From an uncultured virus (IMG/VR IMGVR_UViG_3300025865_000001) (lineage: Duplodnaviria; Heunggongvirae; Uroviricota; Caudoviricetes): a DNA stretch of 60,635 bases. The notes beneath the pieces were generated by a model, which saw only the letters and a program-made list of their open reading frames with translations, was not told where the DNA came from and ran no database searches. Below, piece after piece: positions 2,315 to 57,504 of the stretch (position 1 is its first letter; each line of letters opens with the position of its first letter). The DNA lies in IMG/VR virus record IMGVR_UViG_3300025865_000001. The stretch is one strand, 5' to 3'. Made by a program: the position numbers and the translations under genes.

Positions 2315-2416
2315 ATGAAACCTATCATCGACATTAGTTACTGGCAAGACCCTCGCAATATCAACTATGACAAGTTGTGTGCGGCGGTTGATGGCGTGAT
2401 TATTTGTACTAACTAA
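2315..2416 (+). pseudogene. Truncated N-terminus of a GH25-type muramidase/endolysin
   Basis: MKPIIDISYWQDPRNINYDKLCAAVDGVIICTN* resembles the GH25 start (IDxSxWQ...I.W/Y); its stop overlaps the palindrome at 2416. Confidence 0.6.
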
Positions 2417-2513
2417 TAAAAGCTTAGTTTTATTTGAAGGTTTATTTTTGAAACTTTCAGTTTATCAACCAAAAAATTTATAAATTTGGGAATTTCCCAA
2501 AAAAGGAGAAATT

Positions 2514-3314
2514 ATGACTACAGCTGTTATATCTGATTATTTGGAGGGAATGTTCCTCAACTACGTTTTACGTAGTGTTGCTTTCTCTTCGCCGACGAGT
2601 GTTTATCTCGCCTTGTTCACAGCCACACCGTCTGATGCTGGTGGTGGTACCGAAGTTAGTGGTGGAACTTATTCACGTTTCACTTTAACGGGTGCTTTTG
2701 ATGTAGCTTCTGCTGGTGCAACACAAAATACTGCCATTATTACTTTCCCGACTGCAACTGCGGTCTGGGGTCTGGTAACTAGTGTTGGTATCTTTGATGC
2801 AATTACTGGTGGCAACCTCTTATTCTATGGTTCATTTGGTTCCAACCTGCAAGTTGATACGGGCGACACCCTGTCAATTGCTGCTGGTGCTCTGGATATT
2901 TCATTGGGTGGAGATATTGGTACGTTCCTTGCCAATGAAATGCTTGACCATATCCTCAAGGCTGCTACTTTTACACAACCTGCCGCTGCATGGTTGACTT
3001 TGTATACAACTATGCCAAATGCTGCCGATTCCGGTGGTGTGGAAGTGACTGGTGGCGCATATGCCCGCGTAACCTGTCATGGCGCTGCCAAATGGGATGC
3101 GCCAACTGCTACGGGTGGTGACACTGAAAATACTGCTACCGAAACATTCCCTGTGGCAACTGCCGATTGGGGTACTGTTGTTGGTATGGGTATTAGAACC
3201 GCCAATGCCGCTGGAAGTTTGCTCTTCTTCAAAACTCTAACAGCGAGCAAAACCGTTTACAACGGTGATACGTTCCGCTTTAGTGCTGGAGCTATTGATA
3301 TTGTTTTAAGCTAA
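2514..3314 (+). CDS. Phage tail/virion protein with two tandem homologous domains
   Basis: Two ~130-aa copies (ALFTATPSDAGGGTEVSGG.Y.R ... ITFPTATA.WG.V...GIFDA.TGGNLLF); RBS AGGAG. Confidence 0.75.
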   Translation: MTTAVISDYLEGMFLNYVLRSVAFSSPTSVYLALFTATPSDAGGGTEVSGGTYSRFTLTGAFDVASAGATQNTAIITFPTATAVWGLVTSVGIFDAITGGNLLFYGSFGSNLQVDTGDTLSIAAGALDISLGGDIGTFLANEMLDHILKAATFTQPAAAWLTLYTTMPNAADSGGVEVTGGAYARVTCHGAAKWDAPTATGGDTENTATETFPVATADWGTVVGMGIRTANAAGSLLFFKTLTASKTVYNGDTFRFSAGAIDIVLS

Positions 3315-3331
3315 TTTATTAGTTTAATGCT

Positions 3332-3400
3332 AAATCGGGGTGGGGAAACCCACCCCATTTTAAGAGTGGGGTATAAGAGATTATACTCCAGTCTTAAAGT
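3332..3400 (+). terminator. GC-rich hairpin followed by a second long hairpin (putative terminator)
   Basis: GGGGTGGG-GAAA-CCCACCCC then TTTAAGAGTGGGGTATAA-GAGA-TTATACTCCAGTCTTAAA. Confidence 0.55.
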
Positions 3401-3434
3401 GAAACTTTTAAGTGTAAACAAGTAGAGGTGAAAT

Positions 3435-3497
3435 ATGATTCATGAAGCAGAAGTCACCGTTGTTGTTAGCACTGACCTACGAACCAAGAAATCCTAA
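3435..3497 (+). pseudogene. 20-aa mini-ORF, possible remnant of a repeat-protein gene
   Basis: Strong RBS AGAGGTG; MIHEAEVTVVVSTDL resembles the IHEGEVVIVSTS repeat in 4149..9341; stop overlaps the palindrome at 3497. Confidence 0.4.
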
Positions 3498-3561
3498 TAA
3501 AAGGTTTCTTTTATATAAAAATATATTTGCCATAAAGGGCAGAAATTATTAGAGGTGAATT

Positions 3562-4149
3562 ATGACAATTAATCCGACCATCTCTTATAACGATGTCTAT
3601 TATACCCATGGTGGTGATATAGGTGGGTATGATAATTATAGCGGGAATAGTTTCCCTGTTGAAGAAAATAGTACTTTGCTAGCAAAAGTATCAGCCTTCG
3701 GAGGAAGCCTTGTTGGTAAAAAGGTATTGGTGTGTGGATGTGCCTACGGATTTACTGTTAAATATTTGGTGGGCGTTGGTGTAAATGCATTTGGAATGGA
3801 TATAAGTTCATATGCTATATCACAAGCACCTGCCGAAATATCTAGCAGATTGATTGTTGGGGATGTAAGACTTGCTACTGATTTTGCAAGAGTTAAATCA
3901 TTGGCGAAAATTACTAGCAACAAAAAATTTGACATGATAATTGATGAAGATATGATGTGTTGCCTAAATGACGCAGACGCGGTTATTTATTGTAATCTAA
4001 TGAGGCAATATGGGACATGGGTCGTTCATCTTATTGATGTAAATCCTCATCTCGCTACTTGGTATAACTTTCACACCTTAGCAGAATGGAAAAGTCTGGT
4101 GGGCATGAGCGACAAGTATTATGCGCGTTTCTCATGGAGTGAGGTCTAA
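3562..4149 (+). CDS. Class I SAM-dependent methyltransferase
   Basis: KVLVCGCAYG motif I, GMDIS motif, GDV, FDMII. Confidence 0.75.
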   Translation: MTINPTISYNDVYYTHGGDIGGYDNYSGNSFPVEENSTLLAKVSAFGGSLVGKKVLVCGCAYGFTVKYLVGVGVNAFGMDISSYAISQAPAEISSRLIVGDVRLATDFARVKSLAKITSNKKFDMIIDEDMMCCLNDADAVIYCNLMRQYGTWVVHLIDVNPHLATWYNFHTLAEWKSLVGMSDKYYARFSWSEV

Positions 4150-10525: not shown

Positions 10526-10699
10526 TTATATGTTGTTTATAATATTTTTTTGGCTAATTAATTGTTCATAAATAGCATCAATATCTGTATCACCATCATC
10601 AGTCCAAACTTGAGGTGATAATTGTAAGTTTTCAAAATCGGGTAATACAAATACCCAATTACAACCATCTCGTATAACACGCATTTCTTCTATTACCAT
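10526..10699 (-). CDS. Hypothetical 57-aa protein
   Basis: ATG with RBS GGAG, open to TAA; contains DGCNWVFVLPDFENLQLSP. Confidence 0.55.
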   Translation of the reverse strand: MVIEEMRVIRDGCNWVFVLPDFENLQLSPQVWTDDGDTDIDAIYEQLISQKNIINNI

Positions 10700-10729
10700 T
10701 TATTTTCTCCTAATAAAAGATACTTTTTA

Positions 10730-11011
10730 TTATAACATTGGCGGAACAGTTATCCCAATATTGTTATTCCAATCTTCAATCGCACCTTCTCGATGTCTTC
10801 TGCTCCTTGTTCTGATGTTACAAGTATAGCATTTTACAAAGAAATTTATGCGATTGGCTGTACCTTTGATGAAATAATTAATCAAATGTGGCTGATTACC
10901 ACACCCACATAAATTTAGTGCGCTTCTTCCTGAGCAATGACAAAAGAAACCATTAACAGATTCAGTATCATTACAAATTGGTTTGTGACATATTGGACAA
11001 TTGTTCATCAT
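10730..11011 (-). CDS. Lar-like (restriction alleviation) zinc-finger protein
   Basis: CGCG...VKCYTC...AIEDWN pattern. Confidence 0.55.
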   Translation of the reverse strand: MMNNCPICHKPICNDTESVNGFFCHCSGRSALNLCGCGNQPHLINYFIKGTANRINFFVKCYTCNIRTRSRRHREGAIEDWNNNIGITVPPML

Positions 11012-11033
11012 AAAAGATACCTTTCATTTTTTC

Positions 11034-12469: not shown

Positions 12470-12484
12470 AATGAAATCCTTCTT

Positions 12485-12997
12485 TTATTCAATGTCGTGC
12501 CTACTGATTTCTTTTAATGGTAGTACCGTTGGGTCTGAAAAATCATATTCAACAACTTCAAAACCGGCTCCCCAAAAACAACCTTCAACATCGAGAGTAT
12601 TGTCAAATTCATTGTATATAGGTTCTATCCAGCAAAAGAACTGCTGATATTTATATGTAGCTTCTGGTTCATAGCAATATTCTTTTCGATTTGTAAGGTC
12701 TAGTATACTATAGCCACCATGATAATCTCTACCACAAACCATGTAATCATTTCCATTAGTGTGGTGAAGAAAAAGAGAATAAAAACTAGAATAATTTCTT
12801 TTTATATCAAAAAGAAGTTCATCTGTTTCATTAGAATAAACTTTTCCCCTTGTAAAATTCCAATAACGTTTTTCTGGAGTACCAATGGTATAATATGAAA
12901 CCACTACCCGATACTTATTATCATCCGAGTGCCTTATGTCTGGGGCTTTGGTAGGTTTGATATTTTCTTCTATAAAATATTCGTCAATATTATTCAT
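12485..12997 (-). CDS. Hypothetical protein
   Basis: 170-aa ORF in operon. Confidence 0.7.
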   Translation of the reverse strand: MNNIDEYFIEENIKPTKAPDIRHSDDNKYRVVVSYYTIGTPEKRYWNFTRGKVYSNETDELLFDIKRNYSSFYSLFLHHTNGNDYMVCGRDYHGGYSILDLTNRKEYCYEPEATYKYQQFFCWIEPIYNEFDNTLDVEGCFWGAGFEVVEYDFSDPTVLPLKEISRHDIE

Positions 12998-27276: not shown

Positions 27277-27403
27277 AGATTAACATATCCTTTTTAGTTT
27301 TATTATTGTATGAAAAAATTTATAATATTCCCTTATGCCTCCTTTATAGTAAATCGATTTTCACTAACAAGTTAATACGAATCCTTCAAATGAAAGACTC
27401 ATT

Positions 27404-28237
27404 TTATAAATAACTTTTATATAGACTTTCAGACACATACTCCTTATTAGATGTTCCTATAGTCCTTCTAAAAGAGGAATTTCCTGAATATAAATAAACA
27501 TGGGTTTTATAAACGTCCTCTGGAACTGCATGAGTCATATCGGAAGAAGTTGTTTTACCGTCAAATGACAAAAGATATTTTCCCCTTTGGATTCTTAACC
27601 AATTCCAAAGTAAGTCATAATCTATTGTACCATAGTACATTCCTTTTGTACCTGCATATGGTGGGTCTAAATATAACAAATCATTATCATTTGAAACTAT
27701 TCCTTCATAAGATTTGGACTCAAAGATAACATTATTTTTATTTAATAGTTCATTCCAGTTCATAACTATGCTATTTAATGTTTCTGGAATAATACCATTT
27801 CTGGTTACATGAAAGGCGTTATTAAATTTACCATTTCTATTATATCTTGGCATCCCATTTACTGTTGTTCGCATAATAAACATAAAATCAACAGGAGATT
27901 TTTCTAAATTAAATCGTTCTCTAATAGCAGAATAAAATTTCTTTTTTTTTTCTATGTCAGAGTTTTTATTTAGTTCATTCCATAAATCACTATACCCAAC
28001 AGTTACTATTTTAGGCGTCAATTGTATCATCTTCCATAAATCTATCAAATCATTATTTATATCTGACACCTTAAAATTATCTACTTTTTTATTAGATACC
28101 ATGAGTTGATACAGGACTGAACCTCCACCCAAAAATGGTTCATAATAAGTTTCAATCTCATCAGGAAACATATCTACAATTTTCTCTGACTGACTTCTTT
28201 TACTTCCAGACCATTTTATTGCTGGTTTAATTTTCAA
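27404..28237 (-). CDS. Dam-like (D12 class) DNA adenine methyltransferase
   Basis: KWSGSK, EPFLGGGSV, SDIN, YLDPPY. Confidence 0.92.
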   Translation of the reverse strand: MKIKPAIKWSGSKRSQSEKIVDMFPDEIETYYEPFLGGGSVLYQLMVSNKKVDNFKVSDINNDLIDLWKMIQLTPKIVTVGYSDLWNELNKNSDIEKKKKFYSAIRERFNLEKSPVDFMFIMRTTVNGMPRYNRNGKFNNAFHVTRNGIIPETLNSIVMNWNELLNKNNVIFESKSYEGIVSNDNDLLYLDPPYAGTKGMYYGTIDYDLLWNWLRIQRGKYLLSFDGKTTSSDMTHAVPEDVYKTHVYLYSGNSSFRRTIGTSNKEYVSESLYKSYL

Positions 28238-28287
28238 GTTTGTTTTCCCTTTGAATAAATCAATAGTTTTATTTAAACGCTTAAAAC

Positions 28288-29426: not shown

Positions 29427-29937
29427 TTATAAAAGCTCCATTTTATTGCGAAACTTTGAAAAATCGTGGGCAACATTCAAGTAAGACTTTGTGAATATCC
29501 CAAACTCCTCACATATTTCAAAGGCAGCGTTTATCCCAAGCCAGCCATCGTGTACAAGGTTCATCAATATCCACACTCTAACCTCGTTATCGGTTAGACT
29601 AATGCTCCGTGCTACTTTGAGCCACTCCATGCCTTGTTCACAACTCATGTTATGATATTCGCGCATCTTATTTCCTTTTAACTTTTTTAGTTGGCTTGCC
29701 AAGTGTTTTAGATTTTTGCTTTTTTTCACTTGTTTGTAACTTACCAAACTCCACCTTATTTGCTTCTACAAATTCTAAAAAGCGTACATTATTGTCTTGT
29801 ATGTATTTATCTACGCCATAATCATCTATCAGTTTATCACATTCTTTATGAACAAAGAGATTGACATATGGTCTGTCAAATGCAATTTGAGTTCCTGTAT
29901 CAATCAGTATTTCTTTTTTACAATAAAAACAGTTCAT
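29427..29937 (-). CDS. Two small hypothetical proteins (29668..29937 with CxxC; 29427..~29667)
   Basis: ORF track and operon packing. Confidence 0.55.
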
Positions 29938-30194: not shown

Positions 30195-30198
30195 ATAG

Positions 30199-30269: not shown

Positions 30270-30274
30270 TATAG

Positions 30275-30703: not shown

Positions 30704-31986
30704 CTATTTTTTATCTAACTTAGATTGGTATTTGGCAATGGCATCCGCAAATTTAGCAAAGGCATTCGCAGCATCACTTGATGACGCACTCTCTGGAAAC
30801 ACAAAAAAGGCACTTGATGGTAGAGGTGTTCCCATAATGTCATTAGTTTCAATAATTTTAATTTCAGGAATAAACTTCACATGAAATACAGCGCCACATT
30901 TGGAACAAAGAAATGGGGCATGACGATTTACATTTTCCATTACGGCTTGAGGGGCGTCTTTAAATTTATATACGTGTAATAAACACTCTCCGCTCTTACT
31001 TTGAGCCTCGTAAATTTCGCCACACTTCGGGCAAGGTAAAAGAATTGTGTCATAGCATCCCATTTTTCTCCTTTATATAAAACCACACTTTTATCTTTTA
31101 GTATCAATAGCGCATATGCACGTATTCGTCATTCTCATCATAAATGCATTCCACGTGTTTGTGATACCACTTACTCTTAGGACATGTTACTTTTGTGTAA
31201 TATATTTTCTCTCCTGTTTCGCTGTTGTACGAAGCTAGGTATGATTTCTTAATAACCTTTGAACCGCAAATATAACAGTAATTCATCCTGTCTAAGTCGC
31301 TCGACTCTTTTACTACTTCAACATCAGTTTCATCCATTTTTCTCCTTTATATAAAACAACCCCTTTATTTTTTTGTCAAGGGACAAAATATATTCAATAG
31401 CCTTACAAGAAAATTACCGTCTCTTTTTAATGTCATAGAAGAAATTCTCGATTCGCACTTTTATCCGTCGAAAGAAATAGTTGTAAGGAAGAAGGCGAAG
31501 TTCGTATTTCAAATATCTCCACAGTGTCATGCCACGCAAGTTTATCTTGTTGACGCTCCAAACTGGATTGTCTCTCCAAGTTGGATAAGAAAGTTTCTCG
31601 TAGAAGTTGCGGTAGCCCATGCCAGAAATGTCCGTGTAGGGAACTGCGATGTAGTAAAGCGTTACATCGCCCTTGAGAATTCCAATGTGAGTTGTGTTTG
31701 GCGCGGTCTTTACGTGTTCAAAAAATGGTTCGGGACGGTATTTGCTAATGTATTCATCACCAAACCTAATGTCGTTAAGTGTAAGTATGCTTCCAGCCTC
31801 TTCGAGAAACTCTATTTCGATAAACTCACACGTATAGTTAGTCTCCGCTTTTCCGTGTAAATAAGAATCTAACGAACTTGTCAACACCCCCGTATGCATA
31901 TTTTTTATTAAATTGGCAGGTATGCGAACCACATCACAGTTTTCGTAAACGATGTCAATGAAATCAAAGTCAATTTCTAAGTTCAT
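30704..31986 (-). CDS. Three hypothetical proteins (30704..31063 Zn-finger, 31104..31337 Zn-finger, 31414..31986)
   Basis: ORFs with RBS; CxxC pairs; palindromes at the junctions. Confidence 0.7.
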
Positions 31987-33433: not shown

Positions 33434-33465
33434 AATATAAATCATGCATTTTATTTTTACTCCCA

Positions 33466-39411: not shown

Positions 39412-39412
39412 A

Positions 39413-43538: not shown

Positions 43539-43594
43539 AATTCTCCTTTGGTTTAATATATAAATATTATCATAAAATTATTCTTTTATCAACA

Positions 43595-47501: not shown

Positions 47502-48377
47502 CTATAAAATAGATTGTTGATTAGTCATAGCGGTATCTAATACGTGGCTACGAAGATGTGCGTACCTTTTAGTAGTATCAATACTGCTGTGCCCCAAAGC
47601 TTGTTGAGCCACATAAATATCGGTATTTACCTCTAAAAGATTAGCTGTAAACGTATGACGCAATGAGTGCGTATGAATTTCTTCAATACGCTCCGCAGAA
47701 AAGCCAGCCCTTACCATTGCGGTCTTAACTCTCATACGAATAGCCTCACCAGAATATTTGGTAAGGTTCTTTGATATAAATAAATATGGAAGCCCTGATG
47801 CTTGTGCTCTTTTTTCTCTGTTTTTTAGTTGTGCAGATAAAAACATAGTGGCATCAGGATGAATAGCTAAAATACGTTGTTTATTGCCTTTACCATTAAT
47901 TTTGATGCGCATATTATCCATGACATCCGATAACTTAATGTTGATAAGCTCTGACCTGCGTAAGCCCATAGTTAGTAGTAGCAAAAGCATTAACTTATCT
48001 TCTGCATTTTTAGAATGAGCAACCAGTTCAATCATCTCGTTTCTTGATAAGTAGGCTTGGATGGTACTCGATTCCTCTACCTTCTCAGCAAAATCAAATG
48101 GATTAATGGTCAAATATTGTTTACGTTTCAGCCAGTTATACATAGCTTTGATTGGTCTCAGATAAGTATTGACTGATGTTGGTTTCATTTGCTTTTGAAG
48201 ATTGATTTGAAACATGTCGGCATTGAGAACGGTAACAGATTTTAACCCTTCGAAACTATCAATAGCCAAAAAATCACAGAGCATTTTGATTGCCCTTTTA
48301 TATAATGTTTGTGTACAAGGACTTTTAGTATTTAATGTTGAAAAATAAACATCTAATTCAGTAATTTTGTTTTCCAT
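47502..48377 (-). CDS. Tyrosine recombinase (XerC/D-like)
   Basis: GLRRSE (R), GKGNK (K), HSLRH, LGH, TTKRY; core-binding domain, no arm-binding extension. Confidence 0.95.
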   Translation of the reverse strand: MENKITELDVYFSTLNTKSPCTQTLYKRAIKMLCDFLAIDSFEGLKSVTVLNADMFQINLQKQMKPTSVNTYLRPIKAMYNWLKRKQYLTINPFDFAEKVEESSTIQAYLSRNEMIELVAHSKNAEDKLMLLLLLTMGLRRSELINIKLSDVMDNMRIKINGKGNKQRILAIHPDATMFLSAQLKNREKRAQASGLPYLFISKNLTKYSGEAIRMRVKTAMVRAGFSAERIEEIHTHSLRHTFTANLLEVNTDIYVAQQALGHSSIDTTKRYAHLRSHVLDTAMTNQQSIL

Positions 48378-48404: not shown

Positions 48405-48433
48405 ATTATATCATATGCCAATATAAATGTCAA
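48405..48433 (-). promoter_or_regulatory. Consensus promoter of the recombinase
   Basis: TTGACA-N17-TATAAT with TG. Confidence 0.88.
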
Positions 48434-48692: not shown

Positions 48693-49574
48693 TTATCCTA
48701 TCTCCAAATAAAGGACGGCTTTCATTTCGGCTTTCTTTTTTGCCCACCGTAGGCTAGCGCTTTCACGAATCTTGCGCCTTGTTTCTTCAGGCGGATGTTT
48801 GCCAAAGTTGGGGTTTAGTTCACCTTTGTTTGCCTCAGACATTTTTGCACGAGTTTCGGTTGAGCGGTGCATACCAGTCAAAACTTTCGACAGTTTTGCG
48901 CGGGTTTCTTCGGATATTGGTGGTCTATTTTTCGCTGACTCACTCATTTTTGCACGAGTTTCTGCCGTGCGCGGTGGTCTATTTTGCTGTGACGTGGACA
49001 TCTTTGCTAATGTTTCGACTGAACACTTATGTCCAAGACTTTTTGTATTACCCCTTTGTGCCTCGCTCAACTTCGCACGAGTTGATTCTGATGGGTGTAT
49101 ACCTATTTGTGCAATGCTAATTTTTGCGCGAGTCTCGGTAGACAGATGCTTGCCAAAATTGTAACAAAGTTCACCTTTTTTTGCCTCGCTCATTTTTGAG
49201 CGGGTTTCGGTTGTGTGATACTGACCCTTATGAGATTCGCTCATCTTGCTTTTGGATTCGTCAGAGAAATATCTGCCTTGCATTGGAGCTTTGGCATCTG
49301 TTGCAATATTGTATGCGGGTTTTAGTAACTTGATAAACCCATCTTCAAAGTACAATTTATGCTCTCTGTCACACAATAATATAATACTAAACTCAAATGC
49401 TTGCTCCCCATACTTATTCCAAGCATTTTGCAAATGTGTGTTGCCGTGTATATTTTTACGCAACTCGCAGCGATGACGACTCCATCGGCTGTGTACATTG
49501 ACCGAACCCCCAAGATAATAATCTCTAGTAATAATATTCAGAATCTTGTATATCCCACAAAGTTTAGCAATCAT
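48693..49574 (-). CDS. GIY-YIG homing endonuclease with many NUMOD3 repeats
   Basis: GIYKI...YLGGS; repeated ETRAKMSE. Confidence 0.9.
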   Translation of the reverse strand: MIAKLCGIYKILNIITRDYYLGGSVNVHSRWSRHRCELRKNIHGNTHLQNAWNKYGEQAFEFSIILLCDREHKLYFEDGFIKLLKPAYNIATDAKAPMQGRYFSDESKSKMSESHKGQYHTTETRSKMSEAKKGELCYNFGKHLSTETRAKISIAQIGIHPSESTRAKLSEAQRGNTKSLGHKCSVETLAKMSTSQQNRPPRTAETRAKMSESAKNRPPISEETRAKLSKVLTGMHRSTETRAKMSEANKGELNPNFGKHPPEETRRKIRESASLRWAKKKAEMKAVLYLEIG

Positions 49575-49766: not shown

Positions 49767-50846
49767 TTATGATGGTAAAGTACTTGCGATTTTCTCCCAG
49801 TCAACGCTTCGTGGGTTAAAACTAATATCTATGATGTTATTATACGCTTTACCCGTATTTAAAAGTGTAACAGGAATGCCAGTTTCTTTTTCGATTTTAT
49901 CAACGAAAAGTCTTGCTCCCTTTGTAATATCACTCCAAGTTTTTGCGTTCTTTACTTCTGGGAAAGCGTGCTCCAGGAAGGTAAGAGCTATTTGCGTAGC
50001 GCCATTGACTTCTACTGCCTTTTTTAGCATATCAAAATCAAACTCGGCTTTTCTACGAATTTTCCCTTCGATAGAACTTATTTCGACCAATCCTCTGTCG
50101 ATAATTTCTTGTTCAGATAATTCTCTACCAGCACCCATGTCGTTTGCAGAATATTGACTCCCCTCACGTGAAGGCATTGCCTTGACAACAAGTATAACAT
50201 CTTTAATATTTTTCCAGGATAGTAAAACATCATCGGCAACTGCCATTGCCGTTACGTTATCAGATGTCACATTGGGATAGTCTGGTGAAAAAGCCAAAGA
50301 TAGAAAAGTGCCCTGTGAACCTTCTATAACAACCGAATTATCTTTACATGCCTTATTTATTTCTTCACCTACATCCATTATCATTCCAGATAATGCAGGG
50401 ATATCTTTTGCTTGTTGAGCCTTACGTGCAACAAAATCTTTTCGGCATTCGCCAGTTCCACTCATGGTTGAGCCAATAGCTTTCATGCCCTTGCTATCTT
50501 GTTCTTTTTGAATATGTTCCGTTGTAACAATAGGTGAACGATAATCCACAAATACTCTGCCATCAAGATGATACCTTGCTATTTCTTTAAATAACCAGTC
50601 TGGATTTACAGCCACCCCAGAGCCGATAAGAACTTTAGTTTCTGGATTAAAAATCCATCCTAACGGCAGTTGGTTGCATTTCAAGTATGTTTTCTCGTCT
50701 TCCAAAAATATACCATGTTCTGCATTTGGCCCTGTTCCGCCCCTTGCAGCAAATTTAGCATGGTCTCGTACATTAATATAAGCACTAATTAAACCCTTGC
50801 CCTCATCTCCCCAAGCCCCACCAATAATAATATTTGCACCATTCAT
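49767..50846 (-). CDS. Adenylosuccinate synthetase-family protein (short archaeal type, divergent active site)
   Basis: WGDEGKG, GPNAEH, EGSQG, YPNVTS, NGATQIALT. Confidence 0.88.
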   Translation of the reverse strand: MNGANIIIGGAWGDEGKGLISAYINVRDHAKFAARGGTGPNAEHGIFLEDEKTYLKCNQLPLGWIFNPETKVLIGSGVAVNPDWLFKEIARYHLDGRVFVDYRSPIVTTEHIQKEQDSKGMKAIGSTMSGTGECRKDFVARKAQQAKDIPALSGMIMDVGEEINKACKDNSVVIEGSQGTFLSLAFSPDYPNVTSDNVTAMAVADDVLLSWKNIKDVILVVKAMPSREGSQYSANDMGAGRELSEQEIIDRGLVEISSIEGKIRRKAEFDFDMLKKAVEVNGATQIALTFLEHAFPEVKNAKTWSDITKGARLFVDKIEKETGIPVTLLNTGKAYNNIIDISFNPRSVDWEKIASTLPS

Positions 50847-50879
50847 AATTATATAGCCTCCAATTTTAATTTTTCATTG

Positions 50880-53062
50880 TTACGCTTCTTCATTGAATAC
50901 TCCGTCTACTACTACCACTTGTTTAGGCTCATTAGTTTTCTTCCCCATAAAAAATGATGCAACTACAAGGACTTTCATATTATTAATATCTACTGGCACT
51001 CCGAATAATATCCCATCTGTAGCACCTTTAACAATTTGTCCGTATAGGTCATCTATTGTTTCTTCGTATGTCACAAAATCACCTTCTTTTTATAATGTCC
51101 CCAACCGTCCCAATCTTTGTCCTTAGTATACTCGTCCGCATGTTCTTTTGCACACCTTGAACAATGAGCTTTAGAATTGTTCCCGTCGGTATCATAAACA
51201 TCTATCCACCCCTTCGGATAGTACGCCGTGTCTTCATCATAGTTTCCGTCTTTGTCAACCTCTGAAACAATCTTTCCACAAATGTCACATACGTAAATAC
51301 GGGTTTGAATTATCACAAACTCTCCTTCCTTTTGTTTTTCACTTCTTCATAATGTTTATCACACAAGGTCAATACCCAACCCAAATCGTTTCGCAAAGTT
51401 CCCTTTTCGCCACAAACTTCGCATAATTGATAACTTTCATCTTCATAAAAACTTATCAAATCAAAATACCAGTCCGGGCAAGGAGAAACATAAAATCTTA
51501 ATCCTCCCCATTTTTCTTTTACTTGCAAAACGTGAACAGATTTTGGTTTTGCATCATATAGTTTTTCAATAAGCGGTTTCCATCCTGTCCCAACACATTG
51601 AATGGCGGTGTCTCTTTTCAAACCGTTGCCATAAAATACGCTTTCAGGATTTCGGCACTTTTTATAAAACATAACCAAAGTATACCACAATTTTTTCATA
51701 AAATCTCCATTGTCACTTGTCCAGTATAAGAGCCTTTATAAAGAGGCACATAAATCCGCAAAATTTCCACAATAAGAATAATATAAACATGCCCACTATT
51801 ATCATAAAATCTCTCTTTATCTTTTAATCTTTATATTGAATATATGTTTAAATTCTTCCCAAAGTAATACAAGTCCTGTTTTTTCTACAAATGACGAGCA
51901 ATTAGGACAATAATCTTCGCCATGGATAGAGCCTTCAAGCCAAACTGTACCCGTTCCTTTACACCTTTTGCAAATCATAAAATCTCACTTTTAATCTACA
52001 AATTCTGTTCCAGTCCATACACGGACTTCAATTCTATCTATTCCTAATTGCCTAGCAACTGATAAACGATGATTTCCATGTATAACATACCAATTTAAAT
52101 TAATTATAATTGGCTCTTTTATACCATTCTTTTTTACGTCATTTAATAAAGAATCAAATCTTTCGTTTCCTGGCATAACTCCATCATTGGGAGGGTATTC
52201 GCAACGAATTAATTTAGTAGGAATTAACATTTTGGTAACACCCTTGATATGATTCTTTTTCTATTAATAAAGTCATGAAATCTCCCTTTTATTTGCCAAA
52301 GTTATCAAATTGTCTTTTGTCGACTTCTATAAGTTTGTCAACTATCTTTTCTCTGAAAGGCTTGTCTCTGGTAAGCCACCATACGAATCTACGGAGAATA
52401 TTTTTATCGTCTTTGCACTGTTTGTCCATTAGGTATTTAGCGCTTTCCTCATATTCGGGATGCCTTCCTAAAATCCAATCACAGATAATAACATCCTCCA
52501 TCTGCTGGGTGCAATCCCACTCTGCGGTTTTATTTTTCAAGCAGTTTAGCATTTTGTCCTATCCATATTACTCTTCCATCTTTTACATTTTCCATAATTA
52601 TCTGCGCCGAAACGCTTATGATATGCTTTGCAGAGCGGGTATATCCCCGAAGCAACTGCATTACGGTCAACGTACAAACAATTCCAGCACCCGTCTTGTA
52701 AATAATATCCTTTTGGTCTATAGACTTTTCTCATATTATTGTGCTTCCATTTCCTCCATAACTTTGAGGGTTTTCAACATCTCAGCGTCATCTTCCAGGC
52801 GTTTGATTAAAAATTGTAATCGTTTAATTAAGACATCCTGCTCATCCATTGATGTTGCTCGGATTTGGTCAATATCAATATCTTTTCGTTCCCGTCCAGT
52901 TCCACAGTACAAAATATTGGAAAATCTTAGCCCTCTTACAACATCTGTATTACTGCAATATACAAAGGGATTTGGATACCTAGGATTAACACCATGCTCT
53001 TCGCACCAAAGTTTAAACTGTTGAAAATTTCCAGCAATAACTAATATTTTAGTATTTGTCAT
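50880..53062 (-). CDS. Array of small hypothetical ORFs, including a ParB/Srx-like protein (51991..52230)
   Basis: ORF track; GIKEPI...IHGNHR ParB-N motif. Confidence 0.65.
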
Positions 53063-53394: not shown

Positions 53395-53409
53395 TATAAA
53401 ATGTTCCTT

Positions 53410-56081
53410 TTATTCTATCTCTATCATTTTATACTCAAGTTTTTTAACGCCTTGAGTTTCCAGCCACTTAAGAAAATCGCCTTTTTCAATACCGTTTTTC
53501 TTGTCAGAAGTATCATTACGCATCATCCAATCAATAGTAAAATCTCCTGTTAAAGCGTTTCCTTTGGCAGAATAGGCATTGACAATCCAAGGAAGACTTA
53601 TTTTTATCTTAGCTTTTATTCCTTTGCTTTCCAAAAATTTCACAACAAGGCTGGAATCAAAAGCAAAATCATCAGGGACTTCATATAAATAAATATCGTT
53701 TCTCTCAAGTTCGTCATAATCAAATTCAACTATGTTATGTACATATATCATAAAGCGCTCCTTTTATCCCATTTTTTTGAATAGCAAAAATATAACTGCA
53801 ATAGTTCCTAAACCACCGATTGCACTAGCAATCAGTTTTAATCCTGACGCTATAGCATTCAAAGCGTCAATCAATAGCTGTATTTGTTCTGGTGTAAGTG
53901 TCATAAAATCCTCTATTTAATTAATCTTTGCAGTTCATTAAGAACGATTTGCGCTAACTTCTTAAGGTTTTCCTTTGATTCTCTTTCATTTGCTCCATAG
54001 GCATAGATAGAGCAATCGCCATGAGAAGACCCCAGACTAAATTGCTTCTCTATTGATGACTCAAAACTTTCAAAAGTTTCTTTCTTATCATTATAAATTT
54101 TTATTTCCATTTAATCACTATGCCATTTTCTTTTTTCGACTTCTATAAACTTGTGGATTATCTCACAGGCTTCAGAGTTTGTTAACAAACTGCACTCATC
54201 CTCTTCCTCAGTTACCCGAATAGAAATATCAGTTACCCATTTTTTCGCTAAATTTCCTTCATAAGTAATCAGAAATTCATAAAAGGAAATCAGTTCTTTC
54301 CGTAGATATTGTGCTATAAGTTCATCCATTATAGAATATTCCTTTTTTATCCCATTTTTTTGAAGAACAAAAATAGAAGCGCAATAGTTCCAAAAGCACT
54401 AATTGCACTAGCAATCATTCTTAGTCCTGAAGCTATGGCATTCAAAGCTTCAATTAGTAGTTGTATTTGTTCTGGTGTAATTGTCATAAAATGCTCCTCT
54501 TATTGCTTAATTGTATTCTTATCGAATTATACCAGATAACTCGTTCAGTATTTTAAAATCATCAAAAGAAAAACCAACCAGAACCCGATAACCATGTCCA
54601 TATATACTAATCTTTTCTAAAATAACCATTCTTCCGTTGTATAACATTGCGTATTTTCCTGACGGAAGCTTTACGGATTCCTTATCGACTAAATCTATCA
54701 TTTTATCGTCCATAGTTTCTCCAATGAAACATTTGTTTTATTTATTCGGTGGCTTGAACTTACCTAAATGGTTTATCAAAACTTTTTCAGTAGTGTCGTC
54801 ATCTATATGATAATTTTCGTCTCCAAAACCAGCGAAATTATACAAGAGTTGACCTAATCTCAAATCTGGAAATAAGTGCCACAACTTTGAAATCAGTCCT
54901 AAAATTCTATCAATTCTATCAGGGTTTCGCATAAAAACCTCCTTTTACCTTTGACATTTCACCGGCAACAATTCGCAAATCTGTTCTATCCACTGCGGGG
55001 ATGAGCTTACCACGTGTTTTTAGCACCTCAATAAGTTTATCTGCATATTTTTCGCCTTGCTCAAAAGCGCTCGACTCTCTGGTTGGCATCGTCTGCATGG
55101 CATAGCCATCACTGTATGCACCTCGTATAATTTTTTGAAGCATCTCTTTAGTTATTGAAAATGTTTCTGCTGCCATAAAAATCTCCTTTACTCTTTCATC
55201 CACAAAGCTAATCGGTCTTCAAGAACCTCTTTGTAAGATAGAAACTCCGATAGACCTTCGGCTGTAAAACTACCCCCATACTCGTCTCCTCCAGCTTTAT
55301 CAAAGGTTTCCTCAAACAATTCTTTATTTGATAAAGACCGTGCCACTTCCAAATATTTTTGCATACCATCCGCATAGGTCATAAAAATCTCCTTTTATTC
55401 TAATTGTTGAGAATAAAGTTTTTTACATTGATTTTCTATTGCGTTTATTACCCAATCTGGGCAATTATAATCTTGTTGTATTTCCATTAAATCTTGTTTG
55501 AGTAGCACCCCTCTCCCAACACCATCAGCCCACATTTTTATATGAAAATTAATAGAAGCTTTACATAATAAGAGTTGGTTTAATAACTCTGGCTCGCAAC
55601 ACGAAATATTCTTACCTCGACTATCAATAGACAACAAACACTCTTTTGCAGTATAGCCTTCTTCATCAGGCATGGCTTGATATTTGGTTGGTGCGCCACA
55701 AAAGTTAAATATATCTTTATTGTTTAGATAAAAATCGTAGTCTCTTTCAAAATTTTTAGAATATTTCATACTTGTTATATAATCCATACTCCCAAATCAT
55801 AAAACTTACCCTCCACCTATTGGGTCAGCATAACCGCTTGTACGGTCACCTGGCACAATATAATGGAATGCGTCTGCACGTTCAATAGACTCTCTGTTAT
55901 TCCATTTATTTTTTTCTAGCATAAAACCAACATATTGGTCAGCGGTAGAAATAGAGATATTATATTTTTCATACAGCGCAAATAACTCTTTAAAAAATTC
56001 ATCAAGATTTGTCTCAGCTATGAATTCTTTATCATCGTGTAATTCTTGTATATCATATCTGCCAACTAAGTATTGTTTCAC
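53410..56081 (-). CDS. Cassette-like array of about ten small ORFs separated by palindromes
   Basis: ORF track plus two 46-aa paralogs at 53764..53904 and 54347..54487. Confidence 0.65.
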
Positions 56082-56112
56082 AAGTTTTGTCCTTTGAATT
56101 TTTGCTTAGACT

Positions 56113-56490
56113 CTATTGCACGTCAATATCAGGAATAATAATAGATGGTTTAAAAATAATTCTGTAATGGTAGGCGCTAACATTTGCAGATTCAAGTTGC
56201 TCTGCAAAGTAGGTTACGTTGTCAGACAGTCCTAGGAAATGCTTTTTATACTGGTTATCGCCGGTTTTGCATATGACAGACAATTCTCCAGCAGGGTCTG
56301 CGTTTCCAAGAGAGCAAAATCCTTCAATTTGAAGAATGTAGTCATTGGTAATACCGTTATAAAATACAATTCTGCGCACAATTTCAAAACTGTCGGCAGA
56401 CCTTGACATGTTGCTCGAAGCAACATCGGCTGCCGTGCAAGCCGTTATCAAGATTGCAAGCACCATTAAAACAATAACTAATTTTTTCAC
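56113..56490 (-). CDS. Phage lipoprotein
   Basis: Signal peptide with lipobox ITAC; RRIVFYNGIT, KKHFLGLSDNVTYF. Confidence 0.8.
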   Translation of the reverse strand: MKKLVIVLMVLAILITACTAADVASSNMSRSADSFEIVRRIVFYNGITNDYILQIEGFCSLGNADPAGELSVICKTGDNQYKKHFLGLSDNVTYFAEQLESANVSAYHYRIIFKPSIIIPDIDVQ

Positions 56491-56525
56491 TATATCTATC
56501 TCCTTTTATTTTTTCTAGATAAAAC

Positions 56526-57504
56526 TTACTTTTTATCTTCTTTTGGAATGTTGATAACCTGAGCAAGGGATAGTTCAATAAGATTCAAAACCTTGCGCTT
56601 ATTCTTTAAATCTTCATACGCAGTCCATGAACCATGTTTCTTTTTCATTCTGCAAACAAGAAGACCTTTTTTCGCAGAATATTTATCGTCTGGCAAACAA
56701 GTTGCGCGTGTTTCAGTTCCATCAGACCAAAATGCAATGGTTAAAGGTTCTGCGTTAACGAGTTTTACCAACCTCGGTTTGTTTAGGTCTGCATTAGGGA
56801 AACACATTGCAGTAACTAAACTATTGATAGTATTAGCTAGCACATACTCTCCGGTATTTTTAAACATATTGTTATTTACCTTTCCTTTTTTATTAGTTAT
56901 ATTATTTTTATTTTGTTGTTGAATATTATTAGACATCATCAAATACTTTCCAATCTCTATTTTTTCTTTGTCTACGGCTCAAGCCATGCCACGATTCCAC
57001 CTCTCCAGTTATAATTTGCTCGTCAGTTTTAGTATCTATCCAAGAGTTCTCACTCCAATCAAAAAAGCCTATTGTTTTAGAGCCATCAATTAAGAACAAG
57101 TTGACCTCTACGGAATATCCCTTGAAATTCTTACTCTCTTTTGGCAATTTTATTTCCATGTGTGCTCCTTTTAACCAATTATACTATATGTTTTTAGTCA
57201 TGTCAAGTTATTTGCTATTCCGATCACCGAGAAAACGATTATAACATTCGTCTATCAATAGTTCCAGGGTAGCACTAACATCTTTTTTGTTTTTAACGAT
57301 TTCAAGCATCATGTCTTCATCATTATCAAACGATTCACAATATAGAACTATCTCACCAGTATTAAGGGTTTCCATACTAAAATAATAACTATTCGCTATT
57401 AAATCATTTACCATATTATAGTAGCAACTAGAACATTCTATATACTTTGCGCAAGTTTTACCATTACCTCCTTCAATAAATTCAGTGATTTTCACATTCT
57501 CCAT
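56526..57504 (-). CDS. Three hypothetical proteins (56526..56942, 56929..57159, 57208..57504)
   Basis: ORF track. Confidence 0.6.
57178..57206 (-). promoter_or_regulatory. Consensus sigma70 promoter upstream of the small-ORF arrays
   Basis: TTGACA-N17-TATAAT. Confidence 0.85.

What the first reader, a model, noticed from the sequence alone, without database searches (positions are those of the whole stretch)
2416..56536. Candidate integron-like gene-cassette system: fixed-spacer palindromes at gene borders plus a tyrosine recombinase
Seen: 9 exact and about 12 one-mismatch copies of ATAAAA-N6-TTTTAT, nearly all at gene junctions, densest at 51.7-56.5 kb. A rough estimate at ~65% AT gives under one exact chance hit in 60 kb. 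Single genes or gene pairs are bracketed on both sides: Lar-like (10713/11010, near-identical spacers GATACT/GATACC), NDT+radical SAM (11010/12471), Dam (27390/28255), tail protein (2416/3497), a Zn-finger ORF (31077/31351). The arms supply TAA stops and often the TTTTATG start. Spacers such as GCTTAG, CCACAC, CATTTG and CTTACT carry no RBS, so the motif is not only a translation signal. Known: tyrosine recombinases act on inverted arms around 6-8 bp spacers. Inference: the Xer-like enzyme at 47502..48377, under a consensus promoter, inserts, excises or shuffles single-gene cassettes across the genome.
Basis: partly seen in the sequence, partly recalled or inferred. Interest (0 to 1): 0.88.

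Follow-up and report, generated by a model that had tools for sequence, protein, structure and literature searches.

The report
Gene-border palindromes of SPbeta-like phages
A short palindromic DNA signal between genes of this phage is real, is shared by a whole group of large Bacillus-type phages including the model phage SPbeta, and marks exact points where these phages swap genes, but the protein that reads it is still unknown.

Summary
ATAAAA-N6-TTTTAT occurs 9 times exactly in the window (0.11 expected) and 23 times with at most one mismatch. The excess is only at N6.

It is not private to this phage. The same core, (W)TRAAA-N6-TTTYA(W), is the top palindrome in SPbeta, phi3T, Tsamsa, Geobacillus E3, Perkons and several IMG/VR phages. 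Variant arms occur in phiCD211 and MT835469. Five unrelated Bacillus phages lack it.

The two arms vary independently, so it is read as duplex half-sites, not as a hairpin. Every site in a genome has its own spacer. Orthologous sites keep that spacer (57 of 60 nt) while flanks drift to 77% or are replaced.

In the SPbeta family, homology with relatives stops exactly at site edges. One in-window duplication runs from site to site.

The cassette-border idea is therefore partly right. Integron-like excision by the window's Xer-like enzyme is not supported. Spacers differ within a genome, that enzyme's subfamily is absent from 3 motif-bearing phages, and a different, universal YomM-like recombinase is the better candidate.

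Best reading (about 0.4): same-spacer, in-register site-specific exchange between related genomes. Main rival (about 0.3): operator or roadblock sites.

The parts
2416..2433 (.). exact site, spacer GCTTAG, upstream of fibre-like gene 2514-3314 (+)
3497..3514 (.). exact site, spacer GGTTTC, 47 nt upstream of gene 3562-4149 (+)
10713..10730 (.). exact site; stop of ORF 10730-11011 abuts the left arm; SD and ATG of ORF 10526-10699 lie 13 nt after the right arm (minus strand)
11010..11027 (.). 1-mismatch site (ATGAAA half-site); right arm overlaps the ATG of ORF 10730-11011
12471..12488 (.). 1-mismatch site (TTTCAT); TAA stop in the left arm, SD in the spacer, ATG of the radical SAM gene 1 nt after
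27390..27407 (.). 1-mismatch site; the TAA stop of the Dam-like gene lies in the left arm
28255..28272 (.). 1-mismatch site 17 nt upstream of the Dam-like gene start
29429..29446 (.). exact site, spacer TGGAGC on the coding strand (SD in the spacer)
31077..31094 (.). exact site 13 nt upstream of the ATG of ORF 30704-31063
31351..31368 (.). 1-mismatch site 13 nt upstream of the ATG of ORF 31104-31337; downstream flank is the same as at 31077
33437..33454 (.). 1-mismatch site 3 nt upstream of tRNA-Gly (33361-33433, minus strand); not a translation start
43572..43589 (.). exact site lying between the -35 (TTGATA) and an extended -10 (TGaTAATAT) of a promoter-like sequence, read from the sequence
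51977..51994 (.). 1-mismatch site; TAA stop in the left arm, right arm overlaps the ATG of ORF 51817-51978
52275..52292 (.). 1-mismatch site (TTTCAT), SD GGGAGA in the spacer
53396..53413 (.). exact site; TAA stop in the left arm; ATG of the pyrimidine-dimer glycosylase-like gene 1 nt after
53750..53767 (.). 1-mismatch site; stop, SD and start all within the element; downstream end of duplicated unit A
54486..54503 (.). 1-mismatch site; SD in the spacer, ATG in the right arm; upstream end of duplicated unit B
54724..54741 (.). 1-mismatch site (TTTCAT), 10 nt upstream of the ATG of ORF 54519-54713
54931..54948 (.). 1-mismatch site, SD GGAGG in the spacer, ATG in the right arm
55381..55398 (.). 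exact site; TAA stop, SD GGAG and ATG all inside the 18 bp
56519..56536 (.). exact site 28 nt upstream of the start of the VG64-family gene 56113-56490
47502..48377 (-). Xer-like tyrosine recombinase, 291 aa, with all of R-K-H-R-H-Y; YopP-like subfamily; one candidate reader, not the best one
48405..48433 (-). consensus sigma-A-type promoter TTGACA-17-TATAAT with TG, upstream of the recombinase gene
53762..53913 (-). copy A of a duplicated 46-aa membrane-protein gene unit whose homology runs from one site-like element to the next
54345..54496 (-). copy B of the same unit (86.8% identical over 152 bp)

Best explanation
The motif is the core of a clade-wide duplex-DNA recognition site, (W)TRAAA-N6-TTTYA(W). 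It is carried by the large DnaE-polymerase siphoviruses related to SPbeta, Tsamsa, Geobacillus E3, Perkons and phiCD211, and the window's phage belongs to this group. Outer arm positions are more weakly conserved, and the arms reach 10-14 bp in some lineages.

A phage-encoded dimeric protein reads the two arms as independent half-sites. Each site sits in the few bases between a stop codon and the next ribosome-binding site, or contains them. Each has a private 6-bp spacer.

Most likely mechanism: the sites are crossover points for conservative, tyrosine-recombinase-type exchange between the same site (same spacer) on two related genomes in one cell. Genes or gene pairs lying between two sites are then swapped in register, much as laboratory cassette exchange uses heterospecific lox sites. 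Unlike spacers prevent deletions within a genome.

Candidate enzymes:
- The catalytically intact YomM-like recombinase found in all 13 genomes compared. In this phage it lies outside the window, at L094:14175-15173.
- Less likely, the YopP-like enzyme at 47502-48377.

Shown: the motif, its N6 specificity, its spread across the clade, half-site independence, spacer uniqueness and conservation, and the coincidence of homology ends with site edges.

Inferred: that a recombinase binds the sites, that exchange is site-specific, and that exchange is the selected function.
For: (1) Real and N6-specific in the window and in the 122-kb composite of this phage (11 exact, 29 with at most 1 mismatch).

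(2) Spread across the clade. Exact N6 counts:
- SPbeta 13
- phi3T 14
- Tsamsa 20
- E3 17
- Perkons 9
- G004 11
- G005 10
- G006 17
- G008 14
Other spacings gave 0-2 in the genomes scanned at other spacings.

A de novo scan ranks it the top 6-mer palindrome in comp, SPbeta, Tsamsa, G006 and E3. It also finds ATGAAA-N6-TTTCAT in MT835469 (9 against 0.29 expected) and in Perkons (8), and TTAAAA-N6-TTTTAA in phiCD211 (12 against 0.93). SPP1, phi105, SPO1, AR9 and Bastille together hold 1 exact site in 621 kb. 79 unrelated IMG/VR loci hold 2 in 1.21 Mb, both in G004.

(3) Half-sites vary independently. Perkons has 9 A/A, 8 G/G and 21 mixed sites (19.0 expected). MT835469 has 1, 9 and 8 (7.2 expected). 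Among orientable mixed sites, 10 are G.U and 12 are A.C. In the window the predicted RNA hairpins are weak, -0.5 to -5.0 kcal/mol for the 9 exact sites.

(4) Spacers. 0 direct identical pairs within any of 9 genomes. In G004 against G005 (syntenic, 78.6% identity where alignable), spacers match at 57 of 60 nt and arms at 197 of 200. The 7 homologous 40-nt flanks average 76.8%, and 13 of 20 flanks are unrelated (binomial p=1.5e-4).

(5) Junctions. I used 600-bp queries centred on 5 SPbeta sites, with the site at query positions 292-309. Partial alignments to other SPbeta-family records start at 283-293 or end at 308-309 in 9 of 12, 9 of 20, 11 of 11, 10 of 18 and 7 of 11 non-self records. Two of these sites lie in 320-bp and 508-bp intergenic regions. 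Site-bearing gaps hold homology breakpoints more often than other gaps: SPbeta against phi3T 13 of 26 versus 24 of 193, p=2.7e-5.

(6) In-window. A duplicated 46-aa gene unit is bounded by site-like elements at both ends.

(7) Enzymes. The YomM-like recombinase is in 13 of 13 genomes. R-K-H-R/K-H/W-Y are kept in the 11 rows aligned (g5 and g8 left out). The literature treats these phages' extra tyrosine integrases as unexplained (Perkons paper, passages read).

(8) Inverted arms around a 6-8 bp overlap is the standard geometry of tyrosine-recombinase core sites (established knowledge: XerCD/dif, Cre/loxP).
Against: - No enzyme-site link was tested or could be tested here.
- Lactococcus phage WRP3 carries both recombinase subfamilies but shows no enrichment of this motif (5 against 2-5 at other spacings).
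- Most homology breakpoints are not at sites: 66 of 74 in SPbeta against phi3T.
- With gaps matched for length (25-150 nt), the junction excess is significant in only 1 of 5 comparisons (p=6.8e-5; the others 0.08-0.39).
- The records behind the junction counts are related, so the number of independent events is far smaller than the number of records.
- In three laboratory phi3Ts x SPbeta hybrids, every real parental switch lies inside a long tract identical in both parents (1.4-13 kb). Ordinary homologous recombination therefore suffices there.
- The strictly conserved arms are only 6 bp in the window's phage, which is short for a recombinase arm.
- The tight position just upstream of, or around, ribosome-binding sites fits an expression role as well. 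Of 205 sites in 6 genomes, 114 have an SD plus start within 50 nt on one side only.
- No related-but-different genome of the window's own phage was found, so the comparative evidence comes from relatives.
Confidence: 0.4

Rival explanations
1. The sites are operator or roadblock sites of a conserved phage regulator. A dimeric DNA-binding protein, possibly a small helix-turn-helix protein or a recombinase-fold protein that no longer recombines (as MrpR/SroF does at other sites), binds at gene starts. It tunes or blocks transcription, or insulates neighbouring genes. Gene-swap junctions coincide with the sites only because the sites are the one conserved island in short intergenic regions, and because identical short repeats favour illegitimate joining.
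For: - Duplex half-site reading.
- Position hugging ribosome-binding sites in Tsamsa, E3, Perkons and the window.
- One window site lies inside a promoter spacer (43572).
- Precedents. MrpR/SroF of SPbeta and phi3T is a recombinase-fold repressor with about 10 genomic sites (PMC10516654, abstract and passages; bioRxiv 10.1101/2025.11.27.690993, section 5). Stoperators are another (PMC9283540, abstract from the search listing).
- Laboratory hybrids need no special sites.
Against: - The four 11-12/12 consensus promoter matches in 41-60.6 kb do not overlap sites.
- Sites occur in early, late and accessory regions, and in convergent as well as divergent gaps of SPbeta.
- A regulator that ignores the spacer does not explain 57 of 60 spacer identity against 77% flanks.
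- It also does not explain homology ending within 1-2 nt of the site edge inside 320-bp and 508-bp gaps.
- BLAST-level profiling found no protein present in all motif-bearing genomes and absent from the three phages (WRP3, phiCD211, MT835469) that showed almost no exact ATAAAA motif. Two of those three were later found to carry variant arms.
- MrpR's own sites (SPBRE) are a different sequence.
Confidence: 0.3
2. The sites are an RNA-level intercistronic element. The transcript folds into an AUAAAA/UUUUAU hairpin that presents or precedes the Shine-Dalgarno sequence. It could also mark a processing or stabilising site read by a phage or host ribonuclease.
For: - Sites sit between stop and SD, or hold the SD in the 'loop', in about 10 window sites.
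- In G004 the arms extend to 10-14 bp, and one site folds at -15.1 kcal/mol.
- Two SPbeta sites are annotated stem_loop in the record.
Against: - There is no selection for pairing. Mixed A/G half-sites occur at the frequency expected for independence. A.C mismatches (12) are as common as G.U (10) in the transcribed orientation. The position-3 and position-16 variants are symmetric, 8 against 10.
- Window hairpins are marginal, -0.5 to -5.0 kcal/mol.
- Sites also lie in divergent and convergent gaps and directly upstream of a tRNA.
- Arm sequence, not just pairing, is conserved across phages whose DNA polymerases are only 36-40% identical.
Confidence: 0.08
3. One reading: an integron-like system in which the Xer-like enzyme at 47502-48377 excises, inserts and shuffles single-gene cassettes among the sites of one genome.
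For: - Intact catalytic residues and a consensus promoter.
- Single genes or pairs are bracketed by sites.
- One dispersed duplication of a [site]-gene-[site] unit lies in the window.
Against: - All spacers differ within each genome, which blocks classical tyrosine recombination between sites (established knowledge).
- The sites are 18-26 bp perfect palindromes, not attC-like structures.
- The enzyme aligns collinearly with XerD (residues 22-278 to 23-283), and IntI4 matches only residues 224-276.
- Its subfamily is missing from G006, MT835469 and phiCD211, which carry the motif or a variant.
- Sites keep syntenic positions between G004 and G005 rather than moving.
Confidence: 0.05
4. The motif is a by-product of translation signals in an AT-rich genome: TAA stop, A-rich extended Shine-Dalgarno, U-rich spacer and ATG.
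For: At 8 window sites the stop lies in the left arm. At 6 the ATG overlaps the right arm. About 10 spacers are SD-like.
Against: - The strict N6 peak has nothing at N5 or N7.
- About half of the window sites, and nearly all G004 and SPbeta sites, have non-SD spacers and lie upstream of a separate SD.
- The distance to the start codon varies from -2 to +47.
- The motif is absent from other Bacillus phages that use the same host translation signals.
Confidence: 0.03

Closest known systems
PeSLs (promoter-early stem-loops) of T4-type phages (Arbiol et al. 2010, PMC2839356, abstract read; 2014 follow-up PMC4122927, search listing only)
   Same: Short conserved intergenic repeats flank small non-essential genes. 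They mark the insertion, deletion and replacement joints between related phages, so genes between two repeats behave as shuffling modules.
   Different: PeSLs are composite sigma-70 promoters plus terminator stem-loops, and exchange is ascribed to recombination between the repeats themselves. Here the element is an 18-26 bp palindrome with a fixed 6-bp private spacer. It is not a promoter or a G+C-rich terminator. Its arms are read independently, and joints include the shared spacer.
Tyrosine-recombinase core sites and heterospecific-site cassette exchange (XerCD/dif, Cre/loxP and lox spacer variants; recalled, not read here)
   Same: Inverted arms around a 6-8 bp overlap region. Only sites with the same overlap recombine. 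Two unlike sites flanking a gene allow in-register replacement without deletion.
   Different: Natural systems use one site or a few sites per replicon with 11-13 bp arms. Here there are 20-50 sites per genome, each with its own spacer, and only 6 strictly conserved arm bases. No binding or catalysis has been shown.
SPBRE / MrpR (YopR, SroF) of SPbeta-family phages (PMC10516654, abstract and passages; bioRxiv 10.1101/2025.11.27.690993, section 5)
   Same: The same phage family. A repeated intergenic element is bound by a protein with a tyrosine-recombinase fold, which shows that such proteins in this clade read dispersed genomic sites.
   Different: I derived SPBRE from the ten ChAP-seq promoters as ..ACAAAtACAAAwAATATGTATA.., which is a different sequence. 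The phi3T box is asymmetric and bound by a monomer. MrpR lacks catalytic residues according to the paper. No MrpR homologue was found in the 122-kb composite of the window's phage.
Start-associated sequences and extended SAS of Cluster K mycobacteriophages (PMC3203893, passages read)
   Same: Conserved elements, including inverted repeats, lie just upstream of translation starts of a subset of genes. They are conserved with the gene family and their function is unknown.
   Different: ESAS are imperfect 17-bp repeats with a variable 4-13 bp spacer, tied to an asymmetric SAS and to one orientation. Here the spacing is fixed at 6 and the element is symmetric.
Stoperators of Cluster A mycobacteriophages (PMC9283540 and PMC6550527, search-listing abstracts)
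   Same: Tens of copies of one protein-binding site are spread through the genome in short intergenic spaces.
   Different: Stoperators are asymmetric, orientation-dependent and bound by a monomeric immunity repressor. No repressor is known here, and the site is a palindrome.
Integron attC/IntI cassettes (recalled)
   Same: Single genes are bounded by recombination-type palindromes, and a tyrosine recombinase is encoded nearby.
   Different: See the membership test. Site structure, enzyme type, array organisation and mobility pattern all differ.

Membership tests
Integron | IntI-type integrase with the extra IntI-specific segment | tested here: not met
   The best solved relative is XerD (E 7.6e-22), aligned collinearly (22-278 to 23-283). 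IntI4 matches only residues 224-276.
Integron | attC sites: imperfect palindromes of tens of bases, folded as single strands | tested here: not met
   The sites are 18-bp (up to 26-34 bp in G004) perfect-arm palindromes with a 6-nt spacer. The arms vary independently.
Integron | Cassette array next to the integrase gene and attI, with cassettes mobile between positions | tested here: not met
   Sites are spread over 2.4-56.5 kb of the window and over the whole 122-kb composite. They are syntenic between G004 and G005.
Tyrosine recombinase (Pfam PF00589), for ORF 47502-48377 | Catalytic domain with R-K-H-R-H/W-Y | tested here: met
   PF00589 E 4.2e-32. All six residues align with those of XerD.
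Tyrosine-recombinase core site | Inverted arms around a 6-8 bp overlap | tested here: met
   6-bp arms, longer with weaker outer positions, and a strict N6.
Tyrosine-recombinase core site | Partner sites share an identical overlap region | tested here: inconclusive
   Not met within a genome (0 direct identical pairs in 9 genomes). Met between orthologous sites of related genomes (57 of 60 nt; the whole site is shared at SPbeta-family junctions).
Tyrosine-recombinase core site | Bound and cleaved by the recombinase | not testable with these tools
   No DNA-protein prediction or assay was available.
SPBRE / MrpR system | The SPBRE sequence at MrpR ChAP-seq peaks | tested here: not met
   The motif common to the ten published target promoters differs from ATAAAA-N6-TTTTAT.
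SPBRE / MrpR system | A MrpR (YopR) homologue is encoded | tested here: not met
   No hit in the 122-kb composite by tblastn or BLAST clustering. About 2 kb of the 124,483-bp contig was not examined.
PeSL | Strong sigma-70-type promoter plus terminator stem-loop | tested here: not met
   The four 11-12/12 consensus promoter matches and the 17 terminator-like hairpins in 41-60.6 kb do not overlap sites. Only 43572 sits in a promoter-like spacer.
PeSL | Repeats lie at insertion, deletion or replacement joints between close relatives | tested here: met
   Met in relatives, not in the window's own phage.

The most novel reading that the evidence does not exclude
These phages may run a natural version of recombinase-mediated cassette exchange. 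Dozens of heterospecific sites share arms but each has a private 6-bp 'address'. A conserved late-module tyrosine recombinase (YomM-like) could then swap the genes between two addresses with any co-resident relative, always in register, without deleting its own genome. This would be a dedicated mechanism for modular phage evolution. It would also answer what the orphan tyrosine integrases of SPbeta, Tsamsa, E3 and Perkons are for.
Probability: 0.3. Interest if true: 0.9.

Novelty: new variant of a known kind. Interest (0 to 1): 0.7.

Why it matters
Phage genomes are mosaics, but joints are usually put down to chance illegitimate events or to homologous exchange. Here a sharply defined palindrome is conserved across phages whose polymerases are only 36-40% identical, and it sits exactly at many joints in the SPbeta family. 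SPbeta is a genetically tractable model.

Two outcomes would each be of interest:
- If a recombinase reads the sites, this would be a programmed, address-coded module-exchange system. It would give a function to the unexplained extra tyrosine integrases of this clade.
- If a regulator reads them, it would be a new global control element in SPbeta beside SPBRE.

Either way, the motif is a practical marker for module borders when annotating these phages.

I found no description of it. A string search of the paper library returned one unrelated paper. The Tsamsa and Perkons papers do not contain the words palindrome, inverted repeat or motif. The original 1999 SPbeta genome paper is not in the library, so I cannot exclude that it mentions the repeat. 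The SPBc2 record annotates 2 of 13 exact sites, and only as stem_loop.

Tried and rejected
(1) SPBRE identity: rejected. The MrpR target motif I derived differs.

(2) YonO promoter: rejected. The paper (passages) reports one late operon from one start, while the sites are spread through early, late and accessory regions.

(3) Host-wide signal: rejected. Five unrelated Bacillus phages hold 1 exact site in 621 kb.

(4) Search for a private reader protein. tblastn and all-against-all BLAST clustering over 13 genomes found no family present in all motif-bearing genomes and absent from the rest. Small, fast-evolving proteins could have been missed.

(5) Relatives of the window's own phage. Megablast and blastn against INPHARED, IMG/VR and the metagenome scan gave only the same phage (99.98-100% identity) or nothing. 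So no breakpoint test was possible in the window itself.

(6) Laboratory hybrids phi3Ts x SPbeta (three records). Parental switches lie in 1.4-13 kb tracts identical in both parents, which is uninformative about site use. The small 30-55 nt 'switches' probably reflect differences between the phi3T record I used and phi3Ts.

(7) Spacer sharing between clades. 34 identical pairs against 19.9 expected (3 of 500 shuffles reached 34). This shows a sequence preference in spacers, but I could not show orthology.

(8) Spacer uniqueness within genomes. 1 identical pair (inverted, at the start of the G006 contig) against 3.96 expected, with 86 of 1000 draws as low. This is a trend only.

(10) RNA-seq tools were not used. 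Prophages are silent without induction, and older runs are kept only as contigs, which cannot show RNA ends.

Full report
**1. The observation.**

100 dinucleotide-preserving shuffles gave a mean of 0.11 and never more than 1. Allowing one mismatch gives 23 sites, against a shuffle mean of 1.75 and a maximum of 5.

Scanning spacer lengths 0-20 gives 9 exact sites at N6 and 0-1 at every other spacing. With one mismatch the counts are 23 against 1-7. The everted arrangement shows nothing.

Of the 23 sites, 21 lie between ORFs. 27932 and 59531 lie inside long ORFs and are probably chance matches. All five bracketing claims are correct in position. The names NDT, radical SAM, Dam-type methylase and fibre-like protein are confirmed by Pfam. 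'Lar-like' and 'Zn-finger' found no family match.

**2. What the window alone suggests.**

From about 10.5 kb onward the genes are on the minus strand. Read on that strand, roughly ten spacers are Shine-Dalgarno sequences (GGAGAT, GGAGGT, GGAGCG and others).
- The left arm supplies the upstream TAA stop at 8 sites.
- The right arm overlaps the ATG at 5 sites, plus 51977.

A plain 'stop + SD + start' reading explains these sites but fails elsewhere.
- The N6 peak has no shoulder at N5 or N7.
- Other sites have non-SD spacers and sit 10-47 nt upstream of a separate SD.
- One site is 3 nt upstream of a tRNA gene.

Predicted RNA hairpins for the nine exact sites are weak, at -0.5 to -5.0 kcal/mol.

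**3. The phage and its relatives.**

The window is part of a phage genome of about 124 kb. Two IMG/VR contigs and one metagenome contig are 99.98-100% identical to it. I joined the window and the two IMG/VR contigs into a 122,458-bp composite, which holds 11 exact and 29 one-mismatch sites.

The phage encodes a DnaE-type polymerase. The best named relatives, at 36-40% identity, are Geobacillus virus E3, Perkons, Lactococcus 949-type phages, phiCD211 and c-st.

The motif is shared. Exact N6 counts:
- SPbeta 13
- phi3T 14
- Tsamsa 20
- E3 17
- Perkons 9
- IMG/VR G004 11
- G005 10
- G006 17
- SPbeta-like provirus G008 14

Other spacings gave 0-2 in the genomes scanned at other spacings.

A de novo scan of all 6-mer palindromes ranks it first in the composite, SPbeta, Tsamsa, G006 and E3. 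The scan also shows variant arms in phages that at first looked negative. MT835469 has ATGAAA-N6-TTTCAT 9 times (0.29 expected). phiCD211 has TTAAAA-N6-TTTTAA 12 times (0.93 expected). Perkons uses both ATAAAA and ATGAAA.

With the degenerate form WTRAAA-N6-TTTYAW, every genome except Lactococcus WRP3 shows a sharp N6 peak.

Five unrelated Bacillus phages, totalling 621 kb, hold one exact site. 79 unrelated IMG/VR loci, totalling 1.21 Mb, hold two, both in G004. The element therefore belongs to this phage clade and not to the hosts.

**4. How it is read.**

In genomes where A and G alternate at arm position 3, mixed sites occur at the frequency expected if the two arms vary independently.
- Perkons: 9 A/A, 8 G/G and 21 mixed, against 19.0 mixed expected.
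- MT835469: 1, 9 and 8, against 7.2 expected.

In the transcribed orientation, mixed sites give A.C mismatches (12) as often as G.U pairs (10).

So there is no selection for pairing. The arms are two half-sites on duplex DNA, which is the signature of a dimeric protein. Outer positions are more weakly conserved, with a T three bases outside the arm in most genomes. In G004 the arms are a near-invariant ATAGATAAAA/TTTTATCTAT, with 10 sites at no more than 2 mismatches and nothing between 2 and 4.

**5. It is not SPBRE, and not a YonO promoter.**

SPbeta has a known repeated element, SPBRE, bound by the recombinase-fold repressor MrpR (PMC10516654, abstract and passages). I derived the motif common to the ten published target promoters. 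It is ..ACAAAtACAAAwAATATGTATA.., a different sequence. The phi3T repressor box is asymmetric and bound by a monomer (preprint 10.1101/2025.11.27.690993, section 5).

YonO RNA polymerase drives one late operon from one start (PMC5467207, passages). The sites are spread through early, late and accessory regions. They lie in co-directional, convergent and divergent gaps.

**6. Spacers.**

Within each of nine genomes, no two sites share a spacer in direct orientation. One inverted pair lies at the start of the G006 contig. The pooled expectation was 3.96 pairs, so this is a trend and not significant.

Between G004 and G005 all ten shared sites keep their private spacer. These two genomes are syntenic but only 78.6% identical where alignable.
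- Spacers: 57 of 60 nt identical.
- Arms: 197 of 200 nt identical.
- The 7 homologous 40-nt flanks average 76.8% identity.
- 13 of 20 flanks are unrelated (p=1.5e-4).

**7. Junctions.**

In G004 against G005, homology stops at the outer edge of the element on one side or both sides at most sites. The pairs 79941/80611, 99844/100250 and 52829/53194 bracket conserved genes whose outside neighbours are unrelated.

In the SPbeta family I ran 600-bp queries centred on five sites, with the site at query positions 292-309. Partial alignments begin at 283-293 or end at 308-309 in the following numbers of non-self records:
- 9 of 12
- 9 of 20
- 11 of 11
- 10 of 18
- 7 of 11

Two of these sites lie in 320-bp and 508-bp intergenic regions, so the coincidence is not forced by lack of room. 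At one site, five records keep only a 63-bp island that ends at the site edge.

Genome-wide, the numbers are more modest.
- Only 8 of 74 SPbeta-phi3T breakpoints lie at sites, against 2.0 expected if breakpoints fall at random in intergenic DNA.
- Site-bearing gaps carry a breakpoint in 13 of 26 cases, against 24 of 193 for other gaps (p=2.7e-5).
- After matching gap length, only that comparison stays significant.
- The records are related, so independent events are fewer than records.

In the window itself the only event is a dispersed duplication of a 46-aa gene unit (53762-53913 and 54345-54496). Its homology runs from one site-like element to the next.

**8. Candidate readers.**

BLAST clustering of all ORFs of 13 genomes found no family private to the motif-bearing phages. 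It did separate two conserved tyrosine-recombinase subfamilies.

The YomM-like subfamily:
- It has one member in each of the 13 genomes.
- The gene lies next to or near the tape-measure gene.
- R-K-H-R/K-H/W-Y are kept in the 11 rows aligned (g5 and g8 left out).
- In this phage it lies outside the window, at L094:14175-15173 (PF00589).

The YopP-like subfamily:
- It is present in 10 of the 13 genomes.
- The window's Xer-like enzyme belongs to it by BLAST linkage to the Perkons and Tsamsa members.
- It is absent from G006, MT835469 and phiCD211.

The window's enzyme has all six catalytic residues and a perfect promoter.

The Perkons paper shows that integration there uses a serine integrase, and it leaves three tyrosine integrases unexplained (passages).

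WRP3 carries both subfamilies without the motif. That is a point against a simple link.

**9. Verdict on mechanism.**

Several facts fit exchange between same-spacer sites of two related genomes by a tyrosine recombinase:
- duplex half-sites;
- a fixed 6-bp spacer;
- private spacers that are conserved between genomes;
- joints that include the whole shared site;
- a universal intact recombinase of unknown role.

In outcome this resembles cassette exchange with heterospecific lox sites. I put this reading at about 0.4.

The main rival, at about 0.3, is an operator or roadblock site whose coincidence with joints is a by-product. It explains the hugging of ribosome-binding sites. It does not explain the spacer conservation or the edge-exact joints in long gaps.

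An RNA element is unlikely (0.08). The integron-like model with the window's enzyme is unlikely (0.05). Pure translation-signal composition is rejected as a full explanation.

Laboratory phi3Ts x SPbeta hybrids were uninformative, because all real switches lie in long identical tracts.

**10. Novelty.**

A string search of the paper library for the motif found one unrelated paper. The Tsamsa and Perkons papers do not contain the words palindrome, inverted repeat or motif. The SPBc2 record marks two of the 13 exact sites, and only as stem_loop. The 1999 SPbeta genome paper is not in the library, so prior mention there cannot be excluded.

The closest known kinds are:
- PeSLs of T4-type phages (PMC2839356, abstract);
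- SAS/ESAS of Cluster K mycobacteriophages (PMC3203893, passages);
- stoperators (search listing).

I file the element as a new variant of the known kind 'dispersed intergenic repeats at phage module borders'. There is a substantial chance that it is something new in mechanism.

Noticed in passing
window 30198-30270 (-): A tRNA with anticodon UCA (called SeC by ARAGORN) sits in a seven-tRNA cluster next to tRNA-Trp(CCA). It may be a phage-borne opal suppressor.
   Followed up: no
window 49767-50846 (-) and 46905-47495 (-): An adenylosuccinate-synthetase homologue hits the PHROG family named 2-aminooxy adenylosuccinate synthetase, which I recall (not from any call) as PurZ-type (E 3e-45; Pfam PF00709). 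An HD-domain protein lies 2.3 kb away. Together they hint at a 2-aminoadenine (Z-base) pathway. If this phage carries Z in place of A, the chemistry of the A/T-only arms would change.
   Followed up: partly
L095:16266-19067 (-), outside the window (same phage): A 933-aa protein clusters by BLAST with SPbeta YonO, the single-chain two-barrel RNA polymerase, and hits Pfam RdRP PF05183.
   Followed up: partly
L094:14175-15173 (-), outside the window (same phage): A YomM-like tyrosine recombinase gene lies 39 nt upstream of the tape-measure gene. One orthologue is present in each of the 13 genomes compared.
   Followed up: yes
window 40507-42678, 45738-46355, 27404-28237, 57506-59328: At least seven DNA methyltransferase genes are present. 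There are also four free-standing homing-endonuclease genes: GIY-YIG at 28362-28916 and 48693-49574, and HNH at 17038-17700 and 21907-22584.
   Followed up: no
window 56113-56490 (-): A 125-aa VG64-family protein (PHROG label 'RDF') is 60-71% identical in amino acids in about 200 unrelated IMG/VR phages. It is 67-72% identical in nucleotides in phages of Proteus, Vibrio, Acinetobacter and others. That is unusually conserved for a small phage protein.
   Followed up: no
window 34637-35779 and 38485-39411 (-): RtcB-type and a second RNA ligase are encoded near the tRNA genes. This could be a tRNA-repair set.
   Followed up: no
SPbeta 99497 and phi3T 89339 (L156, L229): The same site, with the same spacer and about 10 nt of one flank, occurs in the two phages in opposite orientation and with otherwise unrelated flanks.
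   Followed up: partly
G006 contig positions 11-28 and 179-196 (L214): This is the only identical-spacer pair found within a genome. The two sites are inverted, 168 bp apart, at the very start of the contig.
   Followed up: no
window 31077-31094 and 31351-31368: Both sites are followed by the same 22-nt leader (TTTTATataaaggagaaaaATGg). The two small genes therefore share a copied start region.
   Followed up: no
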